Of a stretch of 64,000 bases of DNA, positions 9,601 to 58,479 are shown in pieces (position 1 is the stretch's first letter; every line of letters begins with the position of its first letter). The notes below the pieces were generated by a model. The model searched no databases. It saw only the letters and a list, made by a program, of their open reading frames with translations, and was not told the DNA's origin. The translations under genes and the position numbers were made by a program. Source of the stretch: Candidatus Binatia bacterium. GTDB taxonomy: Bacteria > Desulfobacterota > Binatia > Bin18. The stretch spans positions 338,853 to 402,852 of the forward strand of contig OZ246888.1 in the NCBI GenBank assembly GCA_965231775.1, in the 5' to 3' direction.

Positions 9601-10559
9601 GTGATACAGGCGTTTACCGTCTTCACAGGTCACTCGACTTCGAAGATACGCCACTGCGACAATTCGGCAACCTTGCTTGGCATCGTCCGCTCAACACGCT
9701 AAGCGAAGCAGATATTCGGGACCTGATGCTAAAGATGTTGGGCAGGCCTGAAGGCGCTGAAGTCGTCCTTGATGGCTTGAGTATGCGACTGCACGTGTTG
9801 AAAAATGACAACCTCACCTTGGGCCCTGACCTCAAAGGAGCAGGCATACTTGCCTCCGCCGCACTGCTACGCCATAGAGCGGATTATTACGATGGTGGCT
9901 CAATCGATCTTCACCTGTCGGAAGTCTTGAAGTCCTGCATGGACGAAGTCGAGTTTCCCACAGAGACCGGTGAAGTCTTCGATGCGTTTCTCACCAGATT
10001 GAGAGCGTCGTATGGCTACGTGAGTGGTATAGAGAAGGCAGTAGCGGTTCTGGCGGAGAAGACAACATTTCGATTCCTCGATGGCATCTTCCTTGATGCT
10101 GCGCTTAAGGACTATCGCCACACGATTTTTCGGGTAGGGCGTGACGAGGAAAACCCGCTTTCTGGTGTCTCCGTTACGACACTATTAGATTGGTGTGGGC
10201 AAGACGACTTTCAGGAACGGCTGATCATGCTCTCGGAAGCGATTTATCCGTTTGAAAAAGAGCCAGAGGGTGATGGCATCGTATTGTCAGAACAAGCATA
10301 TGCCATTATAGACGCAACACAGGACCCCTCTACAGTTCTGAGAAATTTCTGCTCTTCTGCGAGGCCTAATGGATGGTCGGGGAGTTTGGCGAACATCATC
10401 GCGAAGCGAGGCCAGGCTTTTATGACATTGTTAGAGCATGGCCAATCCGATATCCGCGATGCGGCCGCAGCACAAATCGCTCAAATCAATCAGTGGGAAG
10501 AACAGCAGCGAAGCTACGAGCGGGCCGGGGATGAACAACGTGAGCAGCGTTTTGAGTAA
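6633..10559 (+). CDS. Avs/AVAST-like antiviral STAND NTPase with N-terminal Mrr-like PD-(D/E)xK nuclease domain
   Basis: N-terminus (aa 15-125) matches the Mrr_cat pattern: LRELVARLCEAEL...PDGGLDVEI...GIQVKK...CYIIVSLA (D...QxK). Walker A GLSGVGKS is at aa 238-245 (nt 7344-7367). Walker B is LAIIVLDNC. About 850 aa of helical-repeat C-terminus follow. Compositionally lower GC than the flanks. Confidence 0.65.
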   Translation: MFDISKDQLRQLNDVDLRELVARLCEAELSRAGAPVSAVRWGGAQTAPDGGLDVEILVKDQEFAGDFVPRTWTGIQVKKSNMPASKIAEEMSPKGVLRPIFPELARHNGCYIIVSLADDPAGTNLGDREKAMQTQIEPVKDQGDLRVEFYGCGRLADRLRQHPGVQLWVCEKLGLPLSGWRPFGRWSTTPPGVEDDLICEAGVTIALPGGRDKLDIAQGIDGIRELIRSSGKTVRIVGLSGVGKSRIVQALFEETVGDRPLDRHRAIYADLGEVPDPPPRTVLGRLAAEKHLAIIVLDNCSSDVHNRIASQAASSSNLRLVTVEYDIREDKPEETRVVRIDAEGPEIAETLIKRRHPDLGPVNAQRVAEFSGGNARVALALADTASEEKESLLSFSPAQLFDRLFYQRGAPDADLLKAAEVLALVYSFSISANEGGVDELATLAGLLDQNRRALHREAQTLVERQLAQKRGAWRAVLPHALSNRLAKRALENIPVDDILNTFQGLSNPRLLKSFGKRLGYLHDHEISQDIVKSWLSPGGLLHDLYLLDEDGIQLLLNVAPVAPEDVLNAIEAQDTGGTTEISFSRGSLRLRGNSRLSTFADLLVAIAYDPDLFERCVVRLAKFALMETEEEGENVSGIRGRLYGLFSLYFSETEAGPDAREHVARRFLSSGDRNEQRLGLGMLRAALRGTNQFLAGTVEFGARLRFYGYHPQTHEEHDQWFIRFVALAWKIATGEDVYLSTQVRALLASELRGLWDHSGLREALVDLAMALNEQRPWLEGWRAVRQIKHYDYRRTRGTKLLDKLDEMPESERPSDKETKTYVLSARLLDKLDETLKPRGLADEVRTYVLRADHELSTLDEEFDFDDNQSWQEANKRAAARAYDLGTVVADESNVLNELSEELFTAQNGYLFEFGKGVASKCNDLQGLWERLIEWLELAGDQACHGGVLNGVLKVTHERDEPLAQKILDEAVQKRILRKFIVSLQVSVPLGDTGVYRLHRSLDFEDTPLRQFGNLAWHRPLNTLSEADIRDLMLKMLGRPEGAEVVLDGLSMRLHVLKNDNLTLGPDLKGAGILASAALLRHRADYYDGGSIDLHLSEVLKSCMDEVEFPTETGEVFDAFLTRLRASYGYVSGIEKAVAVLAEKTTFRFLDGIFLDAALKDYRHTIFRVGRDEENPLSGVSVTTLLDWCGQDDFQERLIMLSEAIYPFEKEPEGDGIVLSEQAYAIIDATQDPSTVLRNFCSSARPNGWSGSLANIIAKRGQAFMTLLEHGQSDIRDAAAAQIAQINQWEEQQRSYERAGDEQREQRFE
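9030..9191 (+). repeat. in-frame tandem duplication (2 x 81 nt) inside the STAND gene C-terminal region
   Basis: ttattagataagctcgatgag...aaaacctatgttctcagcgcacga is directly followed by ttattagataagctggatgag...agaacctatgttctcagagcagat. The peptide repeat is LLDKLDEMPESERPSDKETKTYVLSA / LLDKLDETLKPRGLADEVRTYVLRA. Confidence 0.8.
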
Positions 10560-10608
10560 CTGTACGGAGCGCAAATATCCGAACGGTTGAGGGAAAGGTA
10601 GGCTTATC

Positions 10609-10869
10609 ATGAGTGGATACGATAAACCCCTCACCCCCAGACAGATCGCGACCACGAAGGACGAGAGCATCGATTTCAGCGATATTCCTGAGTTGGATGA
10701 GACCTTCTGGCAGCAGGCGGAACTCGTCGAACCCGACCTCACCGACCAGATTACCCTGCGTGTCAAACGGTCCGTGTTGGCCTATTTCAAGGCTCCGGGA
10801 AAGGGCTACCAGACGCGGATCAACCAGGTGCTCGAAAGCTACGTGCGGTCGCAACGCGGACCTGGTTGA
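10609..10869 (+). CDS. BrnA-family ribbon-helix-helix protein (orphan)
   Basis: ELDETFWQQAELVEP...ITLRVKRSVLAYFKAPGKGYQTRINQVLESYV is the BrnA/COG3514 signature. It starts 49 nt after the STAND gene stop. Its last 11 nt overlap the start of the EthD-like fragment. Confidence 0.6.
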   Translation: MSGYDKPLTPRQIATTKDESIDFSDIPELDETFWQQAELVEPDLTDQITLRVKRSVLAYFKAPGKGYQTRINQVLESYVRSQRGPG

Positions 10870-11032
10870 TCTGACCGATTCTGAGCGTGCTTACGGTGGC
10901 GTCGTACAAATCTGTATCGATCATCCCAACGCCACATTCGCGGATATTCAGGGCTATGAGCCAGACGGTTTTGGTGAGTCGGTCAAACCCATGCTGGTAA
11001 TCAGTAGGCATGAGGTTCATATTGTGAGTTGA
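10859..11032 (+). pseudogene. 3'-terminal fragment (~57 codons) of an EthD-like gene, divergent copy of 5788-5967
   Basis: DLVDLTDSERAYGGVVQICIDHPNATFADIQGYEPDGFGESVKPMLVISRHEVHIVS* aligns with DLVDQAESERERTYDGVAQICIDHANATFADIQGYEPDGFGELVEPMLVVSGHEVRIVG* of the intact gene. No start codon or N-terminal half. Third codon positions are AT-shifted relative to the intact copy. Confidence 0.75.
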
Positions 11033-11068
11033 TATAGGGGAGGCGGGGAAACCCATAGGGAAATCTAC

Positions 11069-12274
11069 ATGAGGCAGAGCATAGGCAAACATTCTGGCGT
11101 ATTGCTCTGTCTTCTCCTCTCCCATCTTCTGCTTGCTCCTTCGCTCTCTTCCGCGCAGGACACAGACGACCAGACGCGCGGGTTGCAACTCGACGGGTGG
11201 CAGGGAACGCGGCCAGCGCCACAACAAACTCCCCGGCCCTCTTCCCCGCAGCGCTATGCCCCCGCCCGGCCCCAAGTCCTGGAACTGCCGTCGGTCTCGC
11301 AACCGTCTATGCAGACCCTTCCGCGTCAACAGGACATTCCGCCTACGCATCTCCAAAAACGGACTCCAAGACCCACCCAACTCCTCACTGTCACTGTGAC
11401 AGATCAGAACGGTCAATATATCAACGGTCTGACCCCCGAGGATTTTATCATCTACGAAGGGGGCCAGTCTCAGCTCATTACCTATTTTAATACTGGCCAA
11501 CAGGAGCCGGTCAGTCTGGGCCTCCTGGTTGACATGAGTGAAAGCATGCACGGCAAACGGCGCCGGGCCGTCCTTGCCCTGCGGAGTTTTGCTCAAGCGA
11601 TTAAACCCGGCGATGAGGTTTTTCTTCTAGGGTTTAATCACCAGCTCACGATCTTACAGGACTTTACCGACAGTCCCAGCCTGTTGACGCAGGCTACGGC
11701 CGGTCTCCAGCCGAGCGGCGAGACGGCCCTGTACGACGCCGTGTTGGGCGGTCTGCAACGCATCCAACGCGGCCAGCGTCAGAAGAAAGCCCTCATCCTC
11801 ATGAGTGATGGCCTGGATACCTCAAGCACGGCCTCACGTGAAGACGCTTTTCGGGCGGCGCGGGAAGCCAACCTTCTCATATACACCATCGGTATCGGTA
11901 ATCTCAGCCAAGGTGTCCGAAGCCAGCGGATGCCCATGTGGGGGATGGGCGGGATGGGACGAATGGGCGGGATGGGTGGTCCCTTCATGCCCAGTCGGGG
12001 CCGGCCCAATCTTGGCTCGGTGGATGTTGACCTGCTGCAATCGCTGAGTGACACGACCGGTGCCCAACATTTTTTTCTGAATACGAAAGATATTCTGGGG
12101 AGCCATACAGTACTCGAACAAGCAACCCAGACCATTGCCCACGAACTTCGCCAGCAATACAGCATCGGCTACCTCTCGCCCCTCAAGGGAGATGTCTACC
12201 GCGACGTTCAAGTCGAGACGCGACATCCACAACATCAAGGACTCATCGTGCGGACGCATAAGGGGACGGGGTAG
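11069..12274 (+). CDS. secreted von Willebrand factor A (VWA) domain protein
   Basis: Signal peptide (LLCLLLSHLLLAPSLSSA) and a Pro/Gln-rich linker. VWA/MIDAS-like region DMSESM...SDGLDTSS. Gly-Met repeat MGGMGRMGGMGG. Confidence 0.65.
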   Translation: MRQSIGKHSGVLLCLLLSHLLLAPSLSSAQDTDDQTRGLQLDGWQGTRPAPQQTPRPSSPQRYAPARPQVLELPSVSQPSMQTLPRQQDIPPTHLQKRTPRPTQLLTVTVTDQNGQYINGLTPEDFIIYEGGQSQLITYFNTGQQEPVSLGLLVDMSESMHGKRRRAVLALRSFAQAIKPGDEVFLLGFNHQLTILQDFTDSPSLLTQATAGLQPSGETALYDAVLGGLQRIQRGQRQKKALILMSDGLDTSSTASREDAFRAAREANLLIYTIGIGNLSQGVRSQRMPMWGMGGMGRMGGMGGPFMPSRGRPNLGSVDVDLLQSLSDTTGAQHFFLNTKDILGSHTVLEQATQTIAHELRQQYSIGYLSPLKGDVYRDVQVETRHPQHQGLIVRTHKGTG

Positions 12275-46323: not shown

Positions 46324-46434
46324 TTAGCCCAGCGTGGGAGAGCGCTCAAGGCGTGTAGAGCCGGGGATTCTCTTGTCAGACGACCTATACGGGGGGATGA
46401 ACGGCGTTACATGGGTGTCGAGCAGCAGAGTCAC
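46324..46434 (-). pseudogene. truncated PIN/VapC toxin stub (36 codons)
   Basis: GTG overlaps the antitoxin stop (GTGA). Begins VTLLLDTHV, the VapC N-terminal motif, then terminates. SelO starts 10 nt further on. Confidence 0.4.
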
Positions 46435-46664
46435 GCCAACATGTCCCAGTCGTCGGTCGAGTCAGTGTAGACGAGGTCGCCGTGAATAGTCATCTGGCCC
46501 TTCAGCCCACCGAGTTGTTTGCCCGCAGGAAGTTCTGCGAACGGCTGGATGGCCACAAGGGGTTTTCCACGCAGCGTCACGATCATGGGCTCGCGGGAAC
46601 ACTGGACTTCCTTGAGTACAGCTATGCACTTTGCTTTGAATTCAGACACGAGCATTGTCTTCAT
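46431..46664 (-). CDS. Phd/YefM-type antitoxin (VapB-like)
   Basis: MKTMLVSEFKAKCIAVLKEV...PMIVTLRGKPLVAIQP is a typical prevent-host-death family antitoxin. Confidence 0.65.
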   Translation of the reverse strand: MKTMLVSEFKAKCIAVLKEVQCSREPMIVTLRGKPLVAIQPFAELPAGKQLGGLKGQMTIHGDLVYTDSTDDWDMLA

Positions 46665-50146: not shown

Positions 50147-51304
50147 ATGATGCAAGAGATACCAGCGGGAATCATTTCATCGGACGGCCATGTGTGTGAG
50201 CCGGCCAATTGTTATATCGACTATATTGAACCAAAATACCGGGATGTCGCGCCGCGCATCGTGGAACAACCGGACGGCACGGACGCCTTTGTCGTCCACG
50301 GCATGAAGCGGCCGATTCCCCTGGGATTCATTGATGGCGCCGGCTTCACGGTCACGGAGCGCAATAAACGCGCAAAAAAAGCCAAGTTCTCGGATATCCG
50401 TGAGGGAGCCTACGGCGGCCATGCACGGATTCCGTATATGGACCAGGATGGGATTGCGGCTGAAGTCATCTACGCTTCTATTGGGATGGGCCTGTGCATG
50501 CACCGCGACCCCGATTATAAAAACGCCTGCATGTTAGCCTATAACCGTTGGCTGCAAGCCATGTGCGGCGAAGCGCCGAACCGCATCCTGGGTCTGGCCC
50601 AGACGGCGGTCTTGAGCGTGGACAGTGCGATTGAGGATTTCCGGCGCGCCAAGGACATGGGTATGGTCGGCATGATGATGCCCGGTCGGCCCATCTACGA
50701 AGACTATGATCACGCCGACTACGACGCCCTGTGGGAGTGCGCAACGGACCTCGGTCTGCCGATCTGTTTTCATATTCTGACCTCGCGCGACGGCAGCCTG
50801 AACATGCCGCACCGCGGCCATGAGATGAATAATTTTCTGGGCATTATCCGGGCCGTCCAGGATGTTGTCGGCCTCCTGGTCCTGGGTGGCGTCTTCGAGC
50901 GTCATCCGCAATTGAAACTGGTGTGTGCCGAGGGCGACGCCGGCTGGATGCCGCACTATATGTACCGCATGGACCACGCCGCCAAAATTAACGCCGAGGG
51001 CGGAATCATGGACGGCCTGTCACAACTGCCCAGCGCATATATCAAACGCAACGTATGGATGACGTTCCAGGACGACCCGACGGCGTTTCATGCGGTCGAT
51101 ATCATGCCGCACCAGCAACTGCTGTGGGCCAGCGATTTTCCGCATACGGATTCCACCTGGCCGCGCTCCCAGCAATTACTGGCCGACCACGCGGCCCATA
51201 TCACCGAAGAGCAACGCCAGGACATCATGCGCGAGAATGCCGCCAAGCTGTTTAATCTGCCGGCGGGAAAGAAGTCGTGGCGGATGCATGAGGCCCCTGT
51301 GTAG
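50147..51304 (+). CDS. amidohydrolase-2 family protein
   Basis: Paralog of 18880-20004 (ASDFPH motif). Confidence 0.75.
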   Translation: MMQEIPAGIISSDGHVCEPANCYIDYIEPKYRDVAPRIVEQPDGTDAFVVHGMKRPIPLGFIDGAGFTVTERNKRAKKAKFSDIREGAYGGHARIPYMDQDGIAAEVIYASIGMGLCMHRDPDYKNACMLAYNRWLQAMCGEAPNRILGLAQTAVLSVDSAIEDFRRAKDMGMVGMMMPGRPIYEDYDHADYDALWECATDLGLPICFHILTSRDGSLNMPHRGHEMNNFLGIIRAVQDVVGLLVLGGVFERHPQLKLVCAEGDAGWMPHYMYRMDHAAKINAEGGIMDGLSQLPSAYIKRNVWMTFQDDPTAFHAVDIMPHQQLLWASDFPHTDSTWPRSQQLLADHAAHITEEQRQDIMRENAAKLFNLPAGKKSWRMHEAPV

Positions 51305-51308
51305 GGAA

Positions 51309-51345
51309 ACCCTCACCCTGGCCCTCTCCCAGAGGGAGAAGGGAA
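51309..51345. repeat. partial copy of the GC-rich inverted-repeat element found complete at 57037-57132
   Basis: ccctcaccctggccctctcccagagggagaaggg contains the hairpin ccctctccc-aga-gggagaaggg. The first ~37 nt are near-identical to 57040-57076. The second hairpin and the closing outer stem are lacking. Confidence 0.6.
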
Positions 51346-51352
51346 ATGCACT

Positions 51353-51514
51353 TTACGAACTCGGCTGCATGCCAAGGTCCTTTAACGGCGTGCGGTCCAC
51401 GATCGGCAGGCGGCGTGTCCTCGGCGTGAGTTTGACCGAGCCCGGTACGCGGCTGAACTGATCGACCAGGTCGATTTCCTTGGCGTATGTTGCGGGGCTG
51501 GTGAAGTTGCTCAT
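51353..51514 (-). pseudogene. 3' fragment (~50 codons) of an LLM monooxygenase; copy of the 3' end of 57139-58479
   Basis: Minus-strand translation ...YAKEIDLVDQFSRVPGSVKLTPRTRRLPIVDRTPLKDLGMQPSS* aligns with YAKEIELVDQFTRVPGSVKLTPGTRRLPIVDRTPLKDLGLQPKA*. High nucleotide identity over ~150 nt. No N-terminal body. Confidence 0.7.
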
Positions 51515-51573
51515 TGGGTCATCTTAGTATTACGTCTGATGGGTTTATCAATGATTACCCGTCCTCTAATACT

Positions 51574-52206
51574 CTACTTTGAGCGCTCCCATATCCTGCC
51601 GAAATACTCTAAGGTTCTATCGCCGAAGAATAAGAGTGTGATGACAAGGATACCAAAACAGGCACTTGCCCATAACGGCGCGCAAAGCCACTCTGCCCTC
51701 ACAAGGACAAGAAGCGTCCCGAAGACCAAAAACAAAGCGATCGCGGTGAATCCGCTACGCTGGCATCGATTGAGCCAGAAAAGCTTCTCTGTGTTCGGCT
51801 GAACCGCTTGACGACATTCCCACAGTATAGCCGTGATTTCTTCCCGCAGTGCATCTTCATGTGATAGCTCCTGGAAATCATACACGGTTTCCAGCGCCAC
51901 CCGATATGGTTTCCTGACACTCAATACTTTGATCGCATAGAACAACCCTTTTCCTAGGAAAAGGACGCTGGCTAGAAAAGCAACCAGAAGAAGCCACCTG
52001 CTATCCCCGGCGATCTTTACGAGGGATTCAATTCTCGGAACGATGAGGCTAGCAAGGACGCCGAGTATTGCTAGCATCGCCGTGGCGCGGGTCTCAGCAG
52101 CTTTACCACGTTCTACCTCTTGTACCGCACGCTGTTTGACGAATGTGAGTGACTGCTCCAAAACTTTGACATCGTTTGACGTGATACAGTTCCGTATATC
52201 AAGCAT
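51574..52206 (-). CDS. 4-TM membrane protein (last gene of the ATP-grasp operon)
   Basis: Four hydrophobic segments with a ~60-aa soluble insert. Its ATG overlaps the ATP-grasp stop (ATGCTTGA). Low-GC sequence. Confidence 0.5.
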   Translation of the reverse strand: MLDIRNCITSNDVKVLEQSLTFVKQRAVQEVERGKAAETRATAMLAILGVLASLIVPRIESLVKIAGDSRWLLLVAFLASVLFLGKGLFYAIKVLSVRKPYRVALETVYDFQELSHEDALREEITAILWECRQAVQPNTEKLFWLNRCQRSGFTAIALFLVFGTLLVLVRAEWLCAPLWASACFGILVITLLFFGDRTLEYFGRIWERSK

Positions 52207-53182
52207 GAATCTCTTCCCGCACATTGAGACAGTCAATAATCGCGTCTCTGATCGGATACCCAACCTTTCGCTCTATCCACGCCCACTGCCCATTCGGATT
52301 CAATTCGAGAAAGTAGAATTCATTGTCAGTGCCCTTCACGAGGTCAATTGCTGAGTACTTTAAGCCAAAGTGACGCGTAATAGCGCGACACCTACACGCT
52401 ATCGGGTTCGGCAACTGGATCGCCTCGTGCTTCAGGTCAAACGCATTAACATCCCACAAACGCCAGTCAACTTCAGTTTCAGAGTAATCCTGCGAATGGA
52501 TCGCAGTGGCAAAAACCTGATCCCCGACAACCGTCACCCTGATATCAAACAGCTTTGGAATTTCTCGCTGGTAGATCATCGGTACTGGCGCATACTTATC
52601 GAAGTCGCTCAGAAATTGCTGATCGACTCTTTTCGTAGGTGCTACGGTTACGATATTCTCCCCCCGAGTAAATCCGTGCTTCACGGCCTTACAGACAACG
52701 CGTCCACCATGCATTCTATGAAAGGCACGCACCCGTGCCCCTGTCATGGTTACGCAAGTCTCAGGGATCAAGTAACCGAGGCCACGGGCTACTGAAAGCT
52801 GCTCTATTTTGTTGGAAGCTAACCACAGATCGCGCGGATGATTTAGCCATATATCCCGATCAATCAGCCGCCAAAGGCTCCTGAGAGCTTCCTTCAACTC
52901 TCGATGTACGAAGGGGCGGTCAGCGCATGCTACAGTGTCTGGAACACTTGGCGAAATCGGCTGCCGGAAATAAACTGCTGAAACTGACGAATTCGAGATT
53001 GTCTGGCCGTCCGCCTTGGTGAGACGAAAATCAGACGAAGATGCGCTGAGCTCAACCTCCAGATCAAAACGGATACCAAAATCCTCAGTATTCAGTCGCG
53101 TAAAGGGAATGCCACGTTCTTTGAGACGTAAGATAAGGTAATCGCACGCTAGGTCCGTTTTATTGGTGACAATTAGTAACAT
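52199..53182 (-). CDS. MvdD-family ATP-grasp ribosomal peptide maturase (graspetide ligase)
   Basis: MLLIVTNKTDLACDYLILRLKERGIPFTRLNTEDF, DIRVTVVGDQVFATAIHSQDY..VDWR and YSAIDLVKGTDNEFYFLELNPNGQWAWIE align along their length with microviridin ligase MvdD (recollected). Confidence 0.7.
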   Translation of the reverse strand: MLLIVTNKTDLACDYLILRLKERGIPFTRLNTEDFGIRFDLEVELSASSSDFRLTKADGQTISNSSVSAVYFRQPISPSVPDTVACADRPFVHRELKEALRSLWRLIDRDIWLNHPRDLWLASNKIEQLSVARGLGYLIPETCVTMTGARVRAFHRMHGGRVVCKAVKHGFTRGENIVTVAPTKRVDQQFLSDFDKYAPVPMIYQREIPKLFDIRVTVVGDQVFATAIHSQDYSETEVDWRLWDVNAFDLKHEAIQLPNPIACRCRAITRHFGLKYSAIDLVKGTDNEFYFLELNPNGQWAWIERKVGYPIRDAIIDCLNVREEIHA

Positions 53183-53412
53183 CCCTCATCCTCGGGATCA
53201 GGATCATCGTCACCGGGGGCTGCGAAAGTCTTAGACTCAGTCCTAATAGAATCCTCTTTAGAAACCAGGGGAGACCTCGTTCCATCCCGGGTTACGATAT
53301 TGATCTGTTGGTCTTCATCATAGTGAACGACTACATCTTCCAACTCGTACTGTTTTGCAGTCACAAGAAGGTACGCACGTTTTCCAGTCACTAGACCCCT
53401 CCTATCCTCCAT
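53173..53412 (-). CDS. small acidic protein; candidate graspetide precursor peptide
   Basis: 79 aa. Its stop overlaps the ATP-grasp start by 10 nt. The C-terminal region TRDGTRSPLVSKEDSIRTESKTFAAPGDDDPDPEDEGCY is rich in Thr/Ser/Lys donors and Asp/Glu acceptors. Confidence 0.4.
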   Translation of the reverse strand: MEDRRGLVTGKRAYLLVTAKQYELEDVVVHYDEDQQINIVTRDGTRSPLVSKEDSIRTESKTFAAPGDDDPDPEDEGCY

Positions 53413-53496
53413 GGACGTTATCTTCTGGCATGTCCCGAATGGCTCCCTTAAACGGACTCCAATAATAGCCGAAGGGGAGACTTGAAGAATATTCCT

Positions 53497-56334
53497 TCAG
53501 CGACGTTCCGACAAGTTAAGCATCAGTAACTCCCGAAGAACCTCGTCATCGCTCACATCCGCGTTCCAGCCGTAAGCTGCCGCCACGGCGGCATCAAGGG
53601 CAGTGTGTGCATCAGTCAACCATTGCGGGCGGGTGTTGTAGAGATTGGTCAGGGTGCGTTTCTTGAGTGCTTTCGCTACGTCCTCGTTGCGGGGAACCGG
53701 GCGTTTGGGATAGCCGGGGACCGGCTCGTCTACCCACTCCACCCATTCCGGCGGGTTGAGCCAATTATCACGCAACTCGACCTGCCGCCGGGCGGCCTCA
53801 GCAATGGCAATGGCGCGGGGGTCCTTGGCGTAATCGGATGCGGGGATATCGGGCGACAGTCCATCTGGAAACGGGAACGTCTCAAATGTTGTGGTCGGCG
53901 TGTAGCGCGGGCGGTCTTCCAAGGTGGTGCCGAGCCGGAGCGACCATATTTCATGAAACCGACTATGCAAAATGCCGAAGGTCGTGTCATCGTCGCGGGC
54001 GACGACAACCAACAGATTCTCGGGGTAGATTGCCGGATCGCGCCAGACAAACAATCGGTATTTTGCTGTCATCGACGTTGCGATGTAGCGGGAAACGGTT
54101 TTAATTTTCCTGAACATGGCCTGTCCAGAACGGTCATGCCGCCACCAGTTTTTCCGCAAATCAGTGCGCCGATTGAGGTCCCTTTCGGGCTTTACATGCT
54201 TTTGAACATAGGCGAACGGCGCTTCGTAAAGTGCCGCGTCGGCTTCGCTCATTTCGTGCCCGAAGTCGATGACCCATTTGTCGGCTGGCCGCCGGGTAAC
54301 ATCCATACCGTTGATCCACGGCTTGAGAACATCCGCGTTGGGTCTGCCGTTCGGGTTCGTGGGCAGACAGAGCCATTCACGAGCCAGATCGCCCGGAATG
54401 TCGAAACTTCCCCTTTTGTATCCTCCCCGGAAAGCCGTCTGTCTATTTCGTTCTTGCTCTCGGGCTTCCGTAAGATCGACAATTCCGCCCGTCAGGTCAG
54501 CGTTGATTTGCGGAGCGGCGTTCCCATTGAGGCGAACGGGCAGCTTGGCCGCTTTGTCGGTAAAGCAAACCAGAGACACGCGGACAGCGGCGCCATCAAT
54601 CACCCATGGCTCATCCGACCAAGCATCGTAAATCGTCGAATGCCCAACAATCCGGCTCAGCACGGTGCGATTCTTTCCGTCGCGGATCGAATTCGTCGCG
54701 ACCAAACCAGCGCGGGCGAGCTTGCGATCGGCTACCAGACGAGTAGCCTTGTCGAACCAGTAGCAAACGAGATCGGCGAAGGCTGGTACCAATCCCTTTC
54801 GGGATCGATAAAGGTTTTCCGTATAGGCGTCGCCAAGCACTTGGCGCATCCTCTTGTTCCCCAAAAACGGTGGATTGCCGATCACGACATCGGCCTTGGG
54901 CCAGTCGGATTCACTACCCTCTGGCGTCAGGATGGCGTCCCGGCATTCGATGGTGTCAAGCGGTTTGAGAATCGGGTCGCGAGATTCGTTGAATCCGTTG
55001 CGCCGCATCCATTGGATTTCGCCAATCCACACCGACACACGGGCTAACTCCGCAGCGTAGGCGTTAATCTCGATGCCCTTGACGTTGGCCGGGCCGATAG
55101 CAGGGAATTCTCTCTCTAAGCCCAGCGCTTCGGCCTCCAACTGTACACGATGCTCCAAGTCCTTGAGGGCATGCAGCGCCAGATAAAGGAAGTTGCCCGA
55201 GCCGCAGGCCGGGTCAAGCACGGTGAAGCTCCGCAGCCGGTGGAGAAACGCGCTCAACAGGCGCTCGGCTTCGGCCTGTCGGCGCGTGCGCGTGGCCGTG
55301 GATTTGGCGGTCTCCGCTTTTTCCAGGACAGCAGCGATCTCGGCCTTGGCCGTCTCCCACTCGGTCAACCAGGGGCGAATGATTACCGGCGCGACAATCA
55401 GCATGATCTTGTCGCGGTCGGTGTAATGCGCGCCCAGTTGCGAGCGCTTGTCAGGGTCAAGCCCGCGCTCGAACAGCGTACCGAGAATTGAGGGATCAAT
55501 CTCCGACCAGTCGAGGGCCGCAGCCGCGAGTACGGTATCAATGTCGGTTTTCTCCAGTGGTAGGGTCGTATCGTCGTTAAACAACCCACCGTTGAACCAC
55601 GCCACCGGCTCAAAGCCGACCAGGCCGCCTCTGGCCATCGCCCCGAACAGGGCACGGGCCATCGTGGCGAACTCTTCAGGCCGCTTGTGGGCCTCCTCCA
55701 GCATCCGCGTGAACATGTTGTTCGGCAGCAGGCCCACGTCTTCGGCGAACATGCAGAACACAAGCCGGTTCACGAAATGCGCTACAACGTGACTCTCGTG
55801 GCGGCGTTCCCGTAATGCCTGCGCCAGGGTGGCAAAAGTGGTGGCTGCGCGTTCGGTGACGGTTTGGCGCGTTTCGCCGGGCCGGAGCCGTTCGGGCTCG
55901 GCCATCGCCCATTTTAAGATATTGCGCGTGGCTGCGTCCGCGAGATCGTCCAGCGTAAACTCGTGGGTCTCGCTGACGCTGTTGGTCCAGTTGGTGCGGA
56001 TACGGAACCGCGCCATGTCCGAGACGATCAACAGTGGCGGATTCTCCAGTGCCAGGGCGTACTGCCGTAACTGATTGAAGGCCGCGTCCAGATTCTTGTG
56101 TTTGCCCTTGTACTCCCAGGCAAAGTGATATCGCTTCCACACATCGGCCCAGCCCTTGCCGCCGGTGTCTTTACGCGCGCCACGCTCGAAGCAGTAATGG
56201 TCGCCGGTGGGGTCGGCTTGGGCCGGCGTGGATTCACCGAGCAGACGACACAGGTCAATGAAATGCTCTTGCGACGCCGAACGCTCTTTTAGCTCCGAGG
56301 CGCGCCACTTGGTAATGAATTCGCTTGGCGTCAT
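53497..56334 (-). CDS. MmeI-like type IIL restriction-modification enzyme (single-chain endonuclease + gamma-class N6-adenine methyltransferase + TRD)
   Basis: The N-terminus aligns with the MmeI nuclease domain (D...EYK in DTGGKGWADVWKRYHFAWEYKGK, then PPLLIVSDMARFRIRTNW). Motif I is VLDPACGSGNFL. Motif IV is VVIGNPPF. The 945-aa length matches the family. Confidence 0.7.
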   Translation of the reverse strand: MTPSEFITKWRASELKERSASQEHFIDLCRLLGESTPAQADPTGDHYCFERGARKDTGGKGWADVWKRYHFAWEYKGKHKNLDAAFNQLRQYALALENPPLLIVSDMARFRIRTNWTNSVSETHEFTLDDLADAATRNILKWAMAEPERLRPGETRQTVTERAATTFATLAQALRERRHESHVVAHFVNRLVFCMFAEDVGLLPNNMFTRMLEEAHKRPEEFATMARALFGAMARGGLVGFEPVAWFNGGLFNDDTTLPLEKTDIDTVLAAAALDWSEIDPSILGTLFERGLDPDKRSQLGAHYTDRDKIMLIVAPVIIRPWLTEWETAKAEIAAVLEKAETAKSTATRTRRQAEAERLLSAFLHRLRSFTVLDPACGSGNFLYLALHALKDLEHRVQLEAEALGLEREFPAIGPANVKGIEINAYAAELARVSVWIGEIQWMRRNGFNESRDPILKPLDTIECRDAILTPEGSESDWPKADVVIGNPPFLGNKRMRQVLGDAYTENLYRSRKGLVPAFADLVCYWFDKATRLVADRKLARAGLVATNSIRDGKNRTVLSRIVGHSTIYDAWSDEPWVIDGAAVRVSLVCFTDKAAKLPVRLNGNAAPQINADLTGGIVDLTEAREQERNRQTAFRGGYKRGSFDIPGDLAREWLCLPTNPNGRPNADVLKPWINGMDVTRRPADKWVIDFGHEMSEADAALYEAPFAYVQKHVKPERDLNRRTDLRKNWWRHDRSGQAMFRKIKTVSRYIATSMTAKYRLFVWRDPAIYPENLLVVVARDDDTTFGILHSRFHEIWSLRLGTTLEDRPRYTPTTTFETFPFPDGLSPDIPASDYAKDPRAIAIAEAARRQVELRDNWLNPPEWVEWVDEPVPGYPKRPVPRNEDVAKALKKRTLTNLYNTRPQWLTDAHTALDAAVAAAYGWNADVSDDEVLRELLMLNLSERR

Positions 56335-56455
56335 GGCGTTATTATTTTGGAGTGCCTGTGCATGGATGACGTTCCAAGACGATCCAAAATCGTTTCATCT
56401 TTGGAAAAGGGGGAAGAGATGTTGGGGAAGTTAGATTGAGGGGGCTCCGTGTAGT

Positions 56456-56797
56456 TTAGCCACCAAGAATATCATGCAATAATTCTTGGAGAGTCTTTTG
56501 ATCCTGCTCCCCTAAGCGGCCCAGCTTCTTGAGAATAAGCGTTTTTTCGATAGTGGCCAGTACTGGTTTGATGGTAGACGGTTTCAAAAGGCCGGCTGCT
56601 TTCCAGCCCACAATATGGGCCTCCCCCCGTGTGGATGTTGGTCTGGCCTGACTGGTGATTGCAATAATGATGAGGTCAAGGCGACCTCGGTTATAAGCAG
56701 ACGAACTCACTACCGCTGCCGGGCGCTGTTTACTTGTGGTCTGGTCCGTAAAAGGAAAGGGCGCGAGGACGATGTCTCCAAACTCATAGCTGGTCAT
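56456..56797 (-). CDS. MazF/PemK-family toxin
   Basis: MTSYEFGDIVLAPFPFTD...KQRPAAVVSS...DLIIIAITS is the PemK/MazF signature. Start chosen at 56797. Confidence 0.65.
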   Translation of the reverse strand: MTSYEFGDIVLAPFPFTDQTTSKQRPAAVVSSSAYNRGRLDLIIIAITSQARPTSTRGEAHIVGWKAAGLLKPSTIKPVLATIEKTLILKKLGRLGEQDQKTLQELLHDILGG

Positions 56798-56999
56798 AGT
56801 CGGCATCGTCCGGATTATCCCAGACGCGAGCAAAGGCCGACTCGGACAACTTGGTCGCTGCCTGGCTTAGGCGACGGTCGGCGTCACGCTGACAGAGAAA
56901 ATCGACAAAGTCTTCAACCTCGGAGACTTTAGCCGGTGGCAGGAGCCGGATTTTTTCGATCAGCTCCCGGACATGTGTATCATCAGTAGCCATTCTCAC
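56784..56999 (-). CDS. putative antitoxin of the MazF-like toxin
   Basis: 71-aa acidic protein immediately upstream of the toxin and overlapping it. LPPAKVSEVEDFVDFL is the antitoxin-like motif. Confidence 0.5.
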   Translation of the reverse strand: MRMATDDTHVRELIEKIRLLPPAKVSEVEDFVDFLCQRDADRRLSQAATKLSESAFARVWDNPDDADYDQL

Positions 57000-57036: not shown

Positions 57037-57132
57037 AAGGAACCCTCACCCCGGCCCTCTCCCAGCGGGAGAGGGGATAAAAGGTAGGGGCAACCCCCTG
57101 TGGTTGCCCGGTCCCCCGTCGGTGAGGGAAAA
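57037..57132. repeat. structured GC-rich element with nested inverted repeats, 3' of the LLM gene (terminator or REP-like)
   Basis: The outer stem cctcacc...ggtgagg encloses two hairpins: ccctctccc-agc-gggagaggg and gggcaacc-ccctgt-ggttgccc. A partial copy lies at 51309-51345. Confidence 0.6.
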
Positions 57133-57138
57133 CCCAAC

Positions 57139-58479
57139 CTACGCCTTCGGTTGCAGGCCAAGGTCCTTCAAGGGTGTGCGGTCCACGATCGGCAGGCGGC
57201 GTGTCCCCGGCGTGAGTTTGACCGAACCCGGTACGCGGGTGAACTGATCGACCAGCTCGATTTCCTTGGCGTATTCTTTGACCGCAGGAATGACCTCCTG
57301 GCCCATCAGGCGGATGCTGTTCAGCCGGTCTTCGTTGCCGACTGGCCCTTGAACCTGGAAGCAGGCGAACGTCCCTGGCCGCAGCACGCGGATCATGGTC
57401 TTGATCTTTTCAATCACGGTCTTGGGCGAGCCGACGATCATCAGGTAGTCGTCCTGGGCGCGCTTATACGACTTCTCCAGCTTACGACGGACCTCACCCA
57501 GGTCCGTACTCCTCTTTTTCCGGCCCTGCTGGGCCTCCTTGAGCCGGTCCGAATCAACCCCGACCCAGCCGCCGCTCGGACGCTGGGCCAGCAGGCGAAT
57601 GGCGTTTTTGGAATTATAGCCCGGCGGTAAGGTGTGTTCCGGTCTGGAGAAGGAACTCGCTCCACCGCCCCACACAAACCCTTTGCCCAGCTCCTGAGCC
57701 TTTTCATCCGTGTCCGCGCAGAACACCCCAATCAAATAGGCAAAATTTTCCGTGCCGGCCTGATAGCCGTTTTCGGCCGCGGTATCGGCGTAATAGTCCA
57801 GCAGGTCGCAGGTTGGACTCAGGGCGGTCACCAGGGCCAGATAGGGATAGTTATGCTGGGCCGCCCAGTGCACCGTCTCGGGGCTCAACACGCCGGGAAT
57901 CCACATTTGCGGATGCGGCTTCTGGTAGGGTAGCGCCCACGGATTGACATGGCGGTAGTGAAAATGCTTGCCCTCGTAGCGCCACGGGCCGGGCTTGGTC
58001 CACGCCTGGATAATGAAGTCGTGGGCTTCGTTGAACATCTCGCGGTTATAGGCCGGGTTGGCATTATTGAAGAACTGCTCGCTGCCCGCCCCGCGCACCC
58101 AGCCGGTGACGAGACGCCCGCGTGAGATCAGATCGATCTCGGCCAGCTCTTCGGCCATGCGCAGCGGATGCTTCAGCACCGGCAACGGATTGCCGATCAG
58201 GACGATCTTGGCCTTGCTGGTAATACGCGCCAGGATGGCGGCTTCGACATTCATGACGCTGCCCATACAGAAGGGGTTGCCGTGGTGCTCGTTCAGCATG
58301 AGCGCATCAAAACCGACCTCTTCGGCATAGCAATATTCATCTAGAAAAAAGTTATAATCGTCGGCCGCCTTTTCGCGGTCAAAGCGCGCGTTGGGCAGGG
58401 CAAAGAAACCCCGGTGTTCAAGCACTTCGTCTTCGTCGACCCAGCGATACGGTCGCTCAGTAAAATAGCCAAATAGCAT
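57139..58479 (-). CDS. LLM-class flavin-dependent oxidoreductase
   Basis: Paralog of 12356-13705 (NEHHGNPFC, LISRGRLVTGWVRGAGSEQ). Confidence 0.8.
   Translation of the reverse strand: MLFGYFTERPYRWVDEDEVLEHRGFFALPNARFDREKAADDYNFFLDEYCYAEEVGFDALMLNEHHGNPFCMGSVMNVEAAILARITSKAKIVLIGNPLPVLKHPLRMAEELAEIDLISRGRLVTGWVRGAGSEQFFNNANPAYNREMFNEAHDFIIQAWTKPGPWRYEGKHFHYRHVNPWALPYQKPHPQMWIPGVLSPETVHWAAQHNYPYLALVTALSPTCDLLDYYADTAAENGYQAGTENFAYLIGVFCADTDEKAQELGKGFVWGGGASSFSRPEHTLPPGYNSKNAIRLLAQRPSGGWVGVDSDRLKEAQQGRKKRSTDLGEVRRKLEKSYKRAQDDYLMIVGSPKTVIEKIKTMIRVLRPGTFACFQVQGPVGNEDRLNSIRLMGQEVIPAVKEYAKEIELVDQFTRVPGSVKLTPGTRRLPIVDRTPLKDLGLQPKA

What the first reader, a model, noticed from the sequence alone, without database searches (positions are those of the whole stretch)
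51574..53412. Tightly coupled operon: small acidic peptide, MvdD-type ATP-grasp ligase and 4-TM protein - candidate graspetide cluster next to an RM system
- The 327-aa protein aligns along its whole length with microviridin-type ATP-grasp macrocyclases (MLLIVT..D...D.....L...G.....LNTEDF ... TVVGDQVFATAI ... FYFLELNPNGQWAWIE).
- Directly upstream, overlapping its start by 10 nt, is a 79-aa Thr/Ser/Lys- and Asp/Glu-rich ORF. Such residues are the donors and acceptors for omega-ester/amide crosslinks.
- Directly downstream, overlapping its stop (ATGCTTGA), is a 4-TM membrane protein.
- Graspetide clusters are usually described with GNAT or ABC partners. A minimal precursor-ligase-4TM unit embedded between a type IIL RM enzyme and a MazEF-like pair on a mobile island is unusual.
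- This might be a protease-inhibitor RiPP, or a peptide-based defence or exclusion function.
Basis: partly seen in the sequence, partly recalled or inferred. Interest (0 to 1): 0.7.

Follow-up and report, generated by a model that had tools for sequence, protein, structure and literature searches.

The report
Graspetide cassette with pore-like membrane partner
This is a real, widely scattered three-gene cassette (a 72-residue precursor peptide, the enzyme predicted to staple its side chains into rings, and a small membrane protein) of an already catalogued but untested type; it sits among mobile and often anti-phage genes, and its membrane protein weakly resembles a known cell-killing pore.

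Summary
Three translationally coupled minus-strand genes encode a small acidic protein, a 327-aa MvdC/MvdD-type ATP-grasp ligase and a 210-aa 4-TM protein.

One correction: the small gene starts at GTG 53391, behind an AGGAGG, and gives 72 aa, not 79.

The triad recurs with the same order and overlaps in many bacterial phyla and one archaeon. The small protein has a graspetide-like leader ([PA][FY]LLxxA ... YDxxxQ(L/I)N) and a near-invariant core, T-x-S-K-T-x3-P-G-D-D-D-P-D. The nucleophiles precede the acids, as in known graspetides.

The graspetide reading is therefore supported. The claim that the architecture is unusual is not:
- Makarova et al. 2022 place an Ochrobactrum homologue in the thuringinin branch and list its precursor as singleton cluster5730.
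- They report an uncharacterised membrane protein as typical of that branch.
- I show the window's 4-TM protein is homologous to the one beside TKTxxxxExDD-type loci.

What looks new:
- The core is far more conserved than the leader (81% vs 33% pairwise identity).
- About seven of ten independent Pfam-annotated neighbourhoods hold a recognised defence system; all ten hold toxin-antitoxin or mobility genes.
- MmeI gene plus triad move as one ~5 kb block.
- The membrane protein shows weak, non-compositional similarity to the Pycsar effector PycTM.

Chemistry and biological role remain untested.

The parts
53173..53391 (-). Precursor peptide gene (72 aa, GTG start): MTGKRAYLLVTAKQYELEDVVVHYDEDQQINIVTRDGTRSPLVSKEDSIRTESKTFAAPGDDDPDPEDEGCY. 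Leader about residues 1-47, core about 48-72.
   Evidence: Most homologues are 72-73 aa. The source genome's own call is the 72-aa P0314. In the 33-sequence alignment Y24, T51, S53, K54, T55, P59, D61, D62 and D63 are invariant; L8, D25, N31, P41, G60, P64, D65 and Y72 are at least 90% conserved.
53398..53403 (-). Shine-Dalgarno AGGAGG, 6 nt upstream of the GTG start of the precursor gene
   Evidence: Read directly from the sequence.
52199..53182 (-). MvdC/MvdD-family ATP-grasp ligase (327 aa), the predicted graspetide macrocyclase. Its ATG lies inside the last codons of the precursor gene (10-nt overlap).
   Evidence: Pfam PF21068 (MvdD pre-ATP-grasp domain) scores 43.5 bits against a cutoff of 27, and RimK ATP-grasp 21.7 bits. 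NCBIfam TIGR04187 scores 226 bits at E = 4.9e-67, full length. PDB relatives are MdnB 5ig8 (1.2e-37), 7m4s, 5ig9, 7mgv, 9bou and 7drm. More than 1100 homologues were found.
51574..52206 (-). 4-TM membrane partner (210 aa). Its ATG overlaps the ligase stop (ATGCTTGA). It belongs to the thuringinin-branch membrane protein family and is weakly PycTM-like.
   Evidence: Alignment A2 shows conserved motifs ExxRGKAAExRA, DFQ and QPNTxKLFWLxRCQRSG. The AlphaFold model has pLDDT 84 and four long helices. PADLOC PycTM is hit by 22 of 22 members and by 0 of 10 reversed controls. The protein is homologous to the membrane protein of the Sinorhizobium and P. aeruginosa TKT...DD loci.
53497..56334 (-). MmeI-type IIG/IIL restriction-modification enzyme (945 aa), co-directional, 105 nt upstream of the precursor start. 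It travels with the triad as one block.
   Evidence: Pfam finds MmeI_N, MmeI_hel, MmeI_Mtase, MmeI_TRD and MmeI_C. PADLOC REase_MTase_IIG scores E = 3.7e-300. The block 51390-56337 is shared at 86-88% nucleotide identity with metagenome contig L096.
51308..51488 (.). Left copy of the flanking direct repeat: a palindromic REP-like element plus a duplicated 3' end of the luciferase-like monooxygenase gene. It is carried with the block.
   Evidence: Repeat families D1 and D2. Alignment. The same fragment adjoins the membrane-protein gene in L096.
57041..57274 (.). Right copy of the flanking direct repeat: REP-like element plus the 3' end of the intact monooxygenase gene (57139..58479).
   Evidence: 86% identity to the left copy.
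56456..56999 (-). MazF/PemK-like toxin (56833..56456) and small antitoxin (56999..56784). They are neighbours on the same island and not part of the triad.
   Evidence: PemK_toxin E = 4.4e-12. The antitoxin gives weak DUF2281 and VapB hits.

Best explanation
This is a three-gene graspetide module of the thuringinin branch, carried as cargo on a small mobile island.

**Proposed mechanism**
- Shown only by sequence: the 72-aa product is a RiPP precursor. Its N-terminal leader ([PA][FY]LLxxA, then a YDxxxQ(L/I)N beta element) is the handle that the ligase's N-terminal pre-ATP-grasp domain binds.
- Inferred from the characterised relatives MdnB/C, CdnC and PsnB: the ATP-grasp domain activates side-chain carboxylates of the invariant D61/D62/D63 and the near-invariant D65 as acyl phosphates. 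It then joins them to the hydroxyls of T51/S53/T55 (omega-esters) and the amine of K54 (omega-amide). This would give a compact core with up to four rings.
- Inferred: the 4-TM protein is the dedicated membrane partner of this branch. Its conserved polar motifs sit on long helices that precede the hydrophobic segments, and I read these (not tested) as cytoplasmic. It weakly resembles the pore-forming PycTM module. The most economical reading is a small oligomeric pore or scaffold that receives the modified peptide at the inner face and lets it out. This is the role Makarova et al. proposed for the thuringinin-branch membrane proteins.

**Biological role**
The role is some form of conflict function, given where the cassette sits. 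The default expectation is protease inhibition, because every characterised graspetide is a protease inhibitor.
For: **Ligase**
- Full-length match to graspetide maturase models and solved structures, far above RimK or GshB.

**Precursor**
- Present upstream of the ligase in 14 representative-genome loci from many phyla and one archaeon, most with the same 10-nt overlap.
- A precursor frame was also read upstream of the ligase in the Pfam-annotated contigs I checked.
- The source genome calls it too.
- The four nucleophiles precede the four acids. This is the order noted for microviridin, plesiocin and thuringinin (PMC7823629).
- Leader motifs are shared with precursors of more distant branch members: PFLLRFA...RYDEARQI, and SFLLQFAE followed by a Tyr-containing ELEYSKTLNLS variant.
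- Some loci carry two precursor paralogues, as is common for RiPPs.
- AlphaFold gives a small beta element in the leader and a disordered core.

**Membrane protein**
- The same family lies immediately downstream of the ligase in 48 of about 78 loci, and no hit lies anywhere else in those loci.
- It includes plasmid loci with repeated TKTxxxxExDD cores.

**Literature**
- The Ochrobactrum homologue is placed in 'Branch_Thuringinin' with precursor cluster5730. Cluster 18 membrane proteins are described as specific to thuringinin loci and 'likely involved in peptide transport' (PMC8939145).
Against: - No cross-link has been observed; the chemistry is inference from homology.
- The ligase scores below the curated cutoffs of every named NCBIfam maturase family: 226 vs 350, 202 vs 425 and 158 vs 475.
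- The cassette holds no leader peptidase and no ABC/PCAT exporter.
- The core is much more conserved than the leader (0.81 vs 0.33 pairwise identity). This is the opposite of the hypervariable cores described for many graspetide loci (PMC8939145). It fits a fixed intracellular partner better than a diversifying secreted weapon.
Confidence: 0.6

Rival explanations
1. A peptide-signalled abortive-infection or defence module. The ATP-grasp ligase is the signal-making enzyme, the operon-encoded peptide is its substrate, and the cyclised peptide (or its loss) gates the PycTM-like membrane protein. That protein then opens a pore and kills or arrests the infected cell. This is the logic of Pycsar/CBASS with a ribosomal peptide in place of a nucleotide.
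For: - All 22 close homologues of the membrane protein hit the PADLOC PycTM model (best E = 1.7e-5), and five also hit a second PycTM model.
- Reversed-sequence controls give 0 of 10.
- In the distant tail of the family 9 of 52 hit PycTM down to 8e-8. The other hits are also membrane effector models, including RT-SLATT, 2TM effectors and CorA-like.
- Precomputed Pfam assigns PF18967 (PycTM) weakly to three cluster representatives.
- PycTM is described as a pore-forming effector (PMC11224242).
- Recognised defence genes lie near the cassette in about seven of ten independent Pfam-annotated contexts:
  - MmeI or type ISP RM (window, L088, L094)
  - SIR2-HerA (L081)
  - SNF2-DUF1156-DUF499 (L087)
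  - GmrSD (L089)
  - Shedu SduA_C (L092)

- The closest relative, L096, repeats the window's MmeI arrangement and is not counted as independent.
- The peptide core is under stronger constraint than the leader.
- The membrane protein's conserved polar residues lie on helices that precede the hydrophobic segments, which I read as the cytoplasmic face.
Against: - The PycTM similarity is weak, covers only the first helical hairpin, and is not reproduced by the current Pfam models at E <= 1.
- No PADLOC model matches the ligase or the peptide.
- No paper in the searchable library links this cassette to phage defence.
- The neighbours of the 14 representative-genome loci are mixed and include ordinary metabolism genes.
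- The same membrane family accompanies multi-core thuringinin-type precursors, which look like conventional multi-headed inhibitors.
- No toxicity, phage or trigger data exist.
Confidence: 0.2
2. An intracellular (non-exported) protease-inhibitor graspetide that blocks a phage or mobile-element protease, for example a capsid maturation protease. The membrane protein would serve as an anchor, scaffold or immunity factor.
For: - All characterised graspetides are protease inhibitors (PMC8939145).
- The cassette holds no leader peptidase or exporter.
- It sits in defence and mobile contexts.
- One copy lies in a predicted prophage or integrative element next to integrase remnants.
Against: - This reading does not explain why the membrane protein is so strictly linked and translationally coupled.
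- No target protease is encoded nearby.
- It is pure inference.
Confidence: 0.1
3. The ligase is a RimK/GshB-type small-molecule or C-terminal amino-acid ligase, and the small ORF is irrelevant or untranslated.
For: - Weak secondary hits to RimK (5e-11) and glutathione synthase (1.4e-3). These reflect the shared ATP-grasp fold.
Against: - Graspetide maturase models score about 50 orders of magnitude better and over the full length, including the leader-binding pre-ATP-grasp domain.
- The small ORF is conserved across phyla, with an invariant core and a Shine-Dalgarno sequence.
Confidence: 0.03

Closest known systems
Thuringinin-branch graspetide loci (omega-ester peptide groups 3, 5 and 6 of Lee et al. 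2020; 'Branch_Thuringinin' and 'cluster 18' membrane protein of Makarova et al. 2022, PMC8939145)
   Same: - Same gene order: precursor, single ATP-grasp ligase, then a roughly 200-250-aa membrane protein.
- The membrane proteins are homologous.
- Leader motifs are shared.
- An Ochrobactrum homologue of this very family is placed in that branch.
   Different: - Here there is one core, not tandem repeats.
- The core is T-x-SKT-x3-PGDDDPD, with a Lys and only Asp acceptors, rather than TKTxxxxExDD.
- No Lee group number is attached to the catalogued homologue.
- The clade sits mostly in defence or mobile islands.
Precursor cluster5730 (Ochrobactrum rhizosphaerae SJY1) in the supplement of Makarova et al. 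2022
   Same: - Same family as the window's precursor. Its sequence ends ...STGSKTMQAPSDDDPDPEDEGCY, it is 72 aa long, and it lies next to a 326-aa ligase.
   Different: - It is listed only as a singleton cluster, with no description, no membrane partner noted and no context analysis.
Microviridin system (MdnA with MdnB/MdnC)
   Same: - The ligase is homologous over its full length to MdnB and MdnC (1.2e-37 and 7.8e-30).
- The core has Thr/Ser/Lys donors before acidic acceptors.
- A hydrophobic leader motif is present ([PA][FY]LLxxA, compared with PFFARFL).
   Different: - One ligase instead of two.
- No GNAT and no ABC transporter.
- A different core motif.
- The ligase scores far below the MvdC and MvdD equivalog cutoffs.
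PycTM, the transmembrane effector of Pycsar (Pfam PF18967)
   Same: - Weak but consistent and orientation-specific sequence similarity over the first helix-TM1-TM2 hairpin.
- Both are found in defence islands.
   Different: - No cyclic-nucleotide-binding domain and no PycC cyclase.
- The protein is stand-alone: nearly all 150 listed representatives are about 190-290 aa.
- The similarity is below any family threshold.

Membership tests
Graspetide (omega-ester/amide RiPP) biosynthetic cluster | MvdC/MvdD-type ATP-grasp ligase with the N-terminal pre-ATP-grasp (leader-binding) domain | tested here: met
   PF21068 scores 43.5 bits against a cutoff of 27. Full-length hits to TIGR04187, TIGR04185 and TIGR04184. 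PDB relatives are MdnB, MdnC, CdnC and PsnB.
Graspetide (omega-ester/amide RiPP) biosynthetic cluster | Adjacent precursor gene with a leader and a core in which Thr/Ser/Lys donors precede Asp/Glu acceptors | tested here: met
   T51, S53, K54 and T55 precede D61, D62 and D63, all invariant in 33 sequences; D65 is at least 90% conserved. The ordering rule is taken from PMC7823629.
Graspetide (omega-ester/amide RiPP) biosynthetic cluster | Conserved hydrophobic leader recognition motif (PFFARFL, or 'Phhx(1,2)h') | tested here: inconclusive
   The window has AYLLVTA, while relatives have RPFLL, KPAFLL or KQSFLL. Distant branch members have PFLLRFA or SFLLQFA. This resembles the motif, but binding was not tested.
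Graspetide (omega-ester/amide RiPP) biosynthetic cluster | Side-chain macrolactone or macrolactam cross-links actually present in the product | not testable with these tools
   This needs mass spectrometry of the co-expressed precursor and ligase.
Named NCBIfam maturase families (TIGR04187 SAV_5884, TIGR04185 MvdC, TIGR04184 MvdD, TIGR04192 grasp-with-spasm) | Score at or above the curated cutoff | tested here: not met
   Scores against cutoffs are 226 vs 350, 202 vs 425, 158 vs 475 and 100 vs 230. The ligase belongs to the superfamily but to none of these named subfamilies.
Thuringinin-branch loci (Makarova 2022) | Family-specific uncharacterised membrane protein encoded next to the ligase | tested here: met
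   An iterated HMM finds the family downstream of the ligase in 48 loci and nowhere else in them. The Sinorhizobium partner scores E = 2.9e-4 with the close-family HMM and 4.7e-31 with the iterated HMM; the P. aeruginosa partner scores 6.8e-26.
Thuringinin-branch loci (Makarova 2022) | Core motif of groups 3, 5 and 6 (Thr...Thr...Glu...Asp-Asp, usually in tandem repeats) | tested here: not met
   The core here is single, T-x-SKT-x3-PGDDDPD, with no Glu acceptor and with a Lys present. Compare the TKTxxxxExDD repeats.
Pycsar | PycC pyrimidine cyclase in the operon | tested here: not met
   The block holds only the MmeI enzyme, the precursor, the ligase and the 4-TM protein, with MazEF next to it. 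None of the six scanned products matches a cyclase.
Pycsar | Effector carrying a cyclic-nucleotide-binding domain fused to the TM module | tested here: not met
   The 210-aa protein has no such domain. Family representatives are stand-alone.
Pycsar | PycTM transmembrane module (PF18967 / PADLOC PycTM) | tested here: inconclusive
   Weak PADLOC hits in 22 of 22 members (1.7e-5 to about 1e-3) and in 0 of 10 reversed controls. A weak precomputed PF18967 hit appears in three representatives. The current Pfam scan gives no hit at E <= 1.

The most novel reading that the evidence does not exclude
The cassette, and perhaps the whole thuringinin branch with its PycTM-like partner, is an immune or abortive-infection module. 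A ribosomally made, ATP-grasp-cyclised peptide would play the part that cyclic nucleotides play in Pycsar/CBASS. The cyclised core, or its disappearance on infection, would gate a small pore-forming membrane effector.

This would be a genetically encoded peptide second messenger, or a peptide antitoxin, for a membrane effector. It would also give graspetides a first non-inhibitor role.
Probability: 0.18. Interest if true: 0.85.

Novelty: new member of a known kind. Interest (0 to 1): 0.48.

Why it matters
Graspetides are treated as secreted protease-inhibitor natural products. This clade suggests something more specific.

- It is a compact, self-contained three-gene unit.
- Its peptide core barely changes from Alphaproteobacteria to a methanogen-related archaeon.
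- It hops between genomes together with restriction enzymes and toxin-antitoxin pairs.
- Its only non-biosynthetic gene looks more like a defence-system pore than a transporter.

If the ordinary reading holds, the clade offers a new ring topology (up to three esters and one amide in 15 residues) for a small, easily expressed system. It would also assign a function to the so-far unexplained membrane protein of the thuringinin branch.

If the defence reading holds, RiPP chemistry would join the set of immune signalling mechanisms.

Either way the experiments are cheap: three small genes, one mass-spectrometry measurement and one phage panel.

Tried and rejected
- **Pfam on the membrane protein and its relatives.** Only weak, mutually inconsistent TM-family hits appeared: DUF3995, DUF2721, DUF2207_C, MAPEG and DUF4231. 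None is usable.
- **Retrieving the source contig.** The exact-protein look-up failed and the cluster look-up gave no accession or organism name, so the organism stays unidentified.
- **Plasmid collection.** There are no close relatives (40% identity at most). It was still useful as a source of annotated thuringinin-type loci.
- **Literature.**
  - The motif 'GDDDPD' occurs in no paper text.
  - No paper links graspetide-type ATP-grasp enzymes to phage defence.
  - The 2026 RODEO update (PMC13097080) may contain this group among its 43. Its supplementary table is truncated in the library and the motif was not found in the part held.
  - Makarova's cluster 18 sequences are not held.
- **Promoter and terminator scan.** No sigma-70-like site was found in 51300-53700, and terminator-like hits are no more frequent than in shuffles. 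Transcription may read through from the MmeI gene; this is not resolved.
- **C-terminal Cys-Tyr as a modification site.** I considered this and partly rejected it.
  - The Cys codon (TGT) supplies the TG of the ligase ATG in the 10-nt overlap.
  - Cys is replaced by L, M, S, F or I in several copies, some of which do not overlap the ligase gene.
  - The terminal aromatic residue is conserved regardless.
- **Disrupted ligase in L096.** I considered this because the gene caller gave a 161-aa product. It is rejected: tblastn shows an intact 327-aa frame.
Full report
**1. The observation**

On the minus strand there are three tightly packed ORFs.
- A small ORF ends at 53173.
- A 327-aa ORF runs 53182..52199.
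- A membrane-protein ORF has its ATG at 52206, inside ...CATGCTTGA, the end of the ligase gene. It runs to 51574.

The small ORF overlaps the ligase start by 10 nt, and the membrane gene overlaps the ligase stop by 8 nt.

Several facts place the start at GTG 53391 instead, giving 72 aa.
- Most database homologues are 72-73 aa.
- GTG 53391 is preceded at 6 nt by a perfect AGGAGG.
- The source genome's own gene call is the 72-aa product (P0314).

- A 945-aa MmeI-type IIG/IIL restriction-modification enzyme lies at 56334..53497, with all five MmeI Pfam domains and PADLOC E = 3.7e-300.
- A PemK/MazF toxin with a small antitoxin lies at 56999..56456.

**2. The ligase**

It matches graspetide maturase models end to end.
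- TIGR04187: 4.9e-67
- MvdC: 1.1e-59
- MvdD: 2.5e-46
- grasp-with-spasm: 2.1e-28
- RimK: 5.1e-11
- glutathione synthase: 1.4e-3

The MvdD pre-ATP-grasp domain, which binds leaders, passes Pfam's cutoff. The best solved relatives are MdnB, AMdnB, MdnC, CdnC, 9BOU and PsnB.

The score stays below the curated cutoff of every named NCBIfam family. The ligase is therefore a member of the superfamily and not of a named subfamily. NCBI names homologues 'MvdC/MvdD family ATP grasp protein'.

**3. The small protein is real and looks like a precursor**

I scanned one genome per species with a ligase profile. This returned 575 confirmed loci, of which 80 were kept.

In 14 of the 80, a homologue of the small protein lies directly upstream of the ligase, most often with the same 10-nt overlap. 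One locus has it downstream of the membrane gene. The hosts are:
- Alphaproteobacteria, Gammaproteobacteria and Desulfobacterota
- Dadabacteria, Marinimicrobia, Bacteroidota and Zixibacteria
- Oscillospiraceae, Clostridia, Spirochaetia and Planctomycetota
- a Methanomicrobia archaeon

In a 33-sequence alignment Y24, T51, S53, K54, T55, P59, D61, D62 and D63 are invariant. L8, D25, N31, P41, G60, P64, D65 and Y72 are at least 90% conserved. This gives four nucleophiles followed by four acids, the order noted for microviridins, plesiocin and thuringinin (PMC7823629).

The leader carries [PA][FY]LLxxA and YDxxxQ(L/I)N. The same two motifs recur in precursors of ligases only 30-40% identical, for example PFLLRFAE...LRYDEARQIAQV. 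Another, SFLLQFAET, is followed by a Tyr-containing ELEYSKTLNLS variant.

Several loci have two paralogous precursors. AlphaFold gives a low-confidence model (pLDDT 68) with a small beta element at residues 21-41 and a disordered core. This is what one expects of a RiPP precursor.

One oddity concerns conservation. Pairwise identity is 0.81 in core residues 51-65 but 0.33 in the leader. The published picture for many graspetide loci is hypervariable cores (PMC8939145).

Part of the C-terminal tail is constrained by the overlap.
- The Cys codon supplies the TG of the ligase ATG.
- The GAG GAT GAG codons look like a possible Shine-Dalgarno sequence for the ligase (my reading of the sequence).
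- Cys is replaced by other residues in several copies, some of which do not overlap the ligase gene. The terminal aromatic residue stays.

**4. The membrane protein**

Twenty-one close homologues align over the full length. They share strongly conserved polar motifs:
- ExxRGKAAExRATAML just before TM1
- DFQ and QPNTxKLFWLxRCQRSG before TM3
- D196, E200 and W206 at the C-terminus

The AlphaFold model (pLDDT 84, pTM 0.71) shows two helix-hairpin units, 13-96 and 116-203. The conserved motifs lie on the long helices that lead into the hydrophobic segments. I read these as cytoplasmic, but topology was not tested.

An iterated HMM finds the family immediately downstream of the ligase in 48 of about 78 loci and nowhere else in those loci. 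Two annotated plasmid loci have precursors that are tandem TKTxxxxExDD repeats, the thuringinin-type core. Both carry a homologous 220-aa membrane protein.
- P. aeruginosa RW109: 6.8e-26 with the iterated HMM.

A profile search of 1.84 billion representatives finds only 185 relatives. Nearly all of the 150 listed are stand-alone proteins of about 190-290 aa. It is a small, dedicated family.

**5. What the literature already holds**

Makarova et al. 2022 (PMC8939145) built an ATP-grasp tree.
- An Ochrobactrum rhizosphaerae ligase (326 aa) sits in 'Branch_Thuringinin' and is flagged as found by Lee et al. 2020.
- Its precursor is singleton 'cluster5730', MVKKRSYLLEG...STGSKTMQAPSDDDPDPEDEGCY. 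This is plainly the same family as the window's peptide, and it has no Lee group number.
- The paper states that 'cluster 18' uncharacterised membrane proteins are specific to thuringinin loci and are likely involved in peptide transport.

The precursor-ligase-membrane protein unit is therefore an established, computationally described architecture. It is not an unusual one.

I found no experimental work on this clade. I also found no paper tying it to phage defence. The 2026 RODEO expansion to 43 groups may include it, but the table held is truncated.

**6. Context**

*The window.*
- The triad has 49-51% GC against 58-62% in the flanks.
- The island is bracketed by an 86%-identical direct repeat (51308-51488 and 57041-57274). 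The repeat is made of a REP-like palindrome and the 3' end of a luciferase-like monooxygenase gene.
- A 37-nt scrap of the neighbouring amidohydrolase gene lies at 56362-56398.

*The closest relative.* This is a metagenomic contig, L096.
- It shares window 51390-56337 (monooxygenase fragment, membrane gene, ligase, precursor, MmeI gene) at 86-88% nucleotide identity, in otherwise different surroundings.
- Only 54006-54865, inside the MmeI gene, is unalignable.
- So the MmeI gene and the triad move as one block of about 5 kb.

*Other contigs with Pfam annotation.*
- L081-L086: integrase | triad | RNase T-HerA-SIR2, TacAT, ArdC
- L087: MNT/HepT | two precursors-ligase-TM | SNF2-DUF1156-DUF499
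- L088: MmeI-type enzyme, HigBA, SNF2; here an IS splits the membrane gene
- L089: GmrSD, PIN, IS
- L090: ICE TraG, two integrases, PIN
- L092: IS elements and Shedu SduA_C
- L093: DNA methylase and a cyclase-like gene; ambiguous
- L094: three toxin-antitoxin pairs with a type ISP RM enzyme 90 nt away
- L095: integrase, HD protein and transposase next to smpB

About seven of ten independent contexts hold a recognised defence system within about 5 kb. All ten hold toxin-antitoxin or mobility genes.

*Weaker signals.*
- The 14 representative-genome loci are more mixed. Among 85 neighbouring ORFs there are two type III methylases, a DrmMI/IIG enzyme, QatC and QatD, a reverse transcriptase, Cas1 and two integrases, beside ordinary metabolic genes.
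- One copy lies in a predicted prophage or integrative element next to integrase remnants.
- I did not compute a formal enrichment statistic. The association is strong descriptively but not quantified against a matched control.

**7. The PycTM lead**

- The window protein hits PADLOC's PycTM model at 3.6e-4.
- All 22 close family members hit it, best 1.7e-5. Apart from single hits above E = 0.04 to CARF_TM and CorA models, PycTM models are the only PADLOC family they hit.
- In the distant tail 9 of 52 hit PycTM down to 8e-8. The remaining hits are other membrane effector models.
- Ten reversed sequences, with the same composition and hydrophobic blocks, give no PycTM hit. The signal is therefore not compositional.
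- The collection's precomputed Pfam assigns PF18967 (PycTM) weakly to three representatives.

Against this:
- The current Pfam scan shows nothing at E <= 1.
- The match covers only the first hairpin.
- There is no cyclic-nucleotide-binding domain and no cyclase.

PycTM is described as a pore-forming abortive-infection effector (PMC11224242). I treat this as a lead to remote homology of the membrane module. It is not membership of Pycsar.

**8. Mechanism and verdict**

*Best-supported reading (about 0.6).* This is a thuringinin-branch graspetide module.
- The ligase binds the leader and cross-links T51/S53/K54/T55 to D61/D62/D63/D65.
- The dedicated membrane partner handles the product at the membrane, most simply as a small pore or exporter.
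- The chemistry and the export are inferences. The homologies, the synteny and the conservation pattern are shown.

*Rival with real support (about 0.2).* The membrane protein is an effector gated by the peptide, which would make the cassette a defence or abortive-infection module.

*Third possibility (about 0.1).* The product is an intracellular protease inhibitor aimed at phage or mobile-element proteases.

The idea that the ligase is a RimK/GshB-type enzyme, or that the small ORF is spurious, is effectively excluded.

*Novelty.* This is a new member of a known, catalogued but uncharacterised kind. Three features are not, to my knowledge, described:
- the core is more conserved than the leader;
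- the cassette resides in defence islands and moves together with a MmeI enzyme;
- the membrane partner is PycTM-like.

Interest is moderate. It would be high if the defence reading proved true.

Noticed in passing
window 54006-54865 (inside the MmeI-type gene, roughly residues 490-776): The MmeI gene is 86-88% identical in nucleotides to its counterpart in contig L096 on both sides. This 860-nt stretch does not align at all. Its far end reaches the region that matches the Pfam MmeI target-recognition domain (residues 753-824), so it looks like a specificity-module swap between otherwise near-identical enzymes.
   Followed up: partly
window 51308-51514, 56362-56398 and 57041-57274: The island is flanked by an 86%-identical duplication of a REP-like palindrome plus the 3' end of the luciferase-like monooxygenase gene. 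A 37-nt scrap of the amidohydrolase gene (matching 51055-51091) sits between the MmeI and MazF genes. The monooxygenase fragment also travels with the block in L096. It may act as the element's homology or attachment segment. No integrase lies in the island.
   Followed up: partly
window 51308-51344 and 57041-57077: A 37-nt palindromic element (AACCCTCACCC..GGCCCTCTCCCAG.GGGAGA.GGGA) occurs in two copies at 92% identity. It looks like a genome-wide REP-type repeat. I did not check its copy number elsewhere in the window.
   Followed up: no
L088:9982-11994: In this relative the membrane-protein gene is split by an IS (DUF772 transposase, 10314-11666), while the precursor and ligase stay intact. 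This is a natural knockout of the membrane partner, which suggests the ligase and peptide are tolerated without it.
   Followed up: partly
L087:8462-9010; L006:5403-6010; L008:5466-6010; L010:5427-5898: Several relatives carry two tandem precursor paralogues. The cores are identical or nearly so, but the leaders and C-terminal tails differ (for example ...FMY or ...LMY instead of ...CY).
   Followed up: partly
L081:4237-4455; L090:8789-9010; L096:9043-10023: Public gene calls often truncate or miss genes of this cassette. The precursor is called as 56 aa in L081 and not called at all in L090. The intact ligase in L096 is called as 161 aa. Surveys that rely on gene calls will therefore undercount this family.
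   Followed up: yes
window 46431-46664 (minus strand): A 77-aa ORF (MKTMLVSEFKAKCIAVLKEV...) looks to me like a Phd/YefM-type antitoxin. No obvious toxin gene appears in the ORF list beside it. It was not scanned against any library.
   Followed up: no
L014, L017, L018, L033, L035, L046 and L097-L098 (upstream of the ligase): More distant branch members encode precursors with one to four tandem cores of the type (T/S)KTxxxxE(R/x)DD. They share the same leader motifs and the same membrane partner. The PycTM-like partner is thus a feature of the whole branch and not only of this clade.
   Followed up: partly
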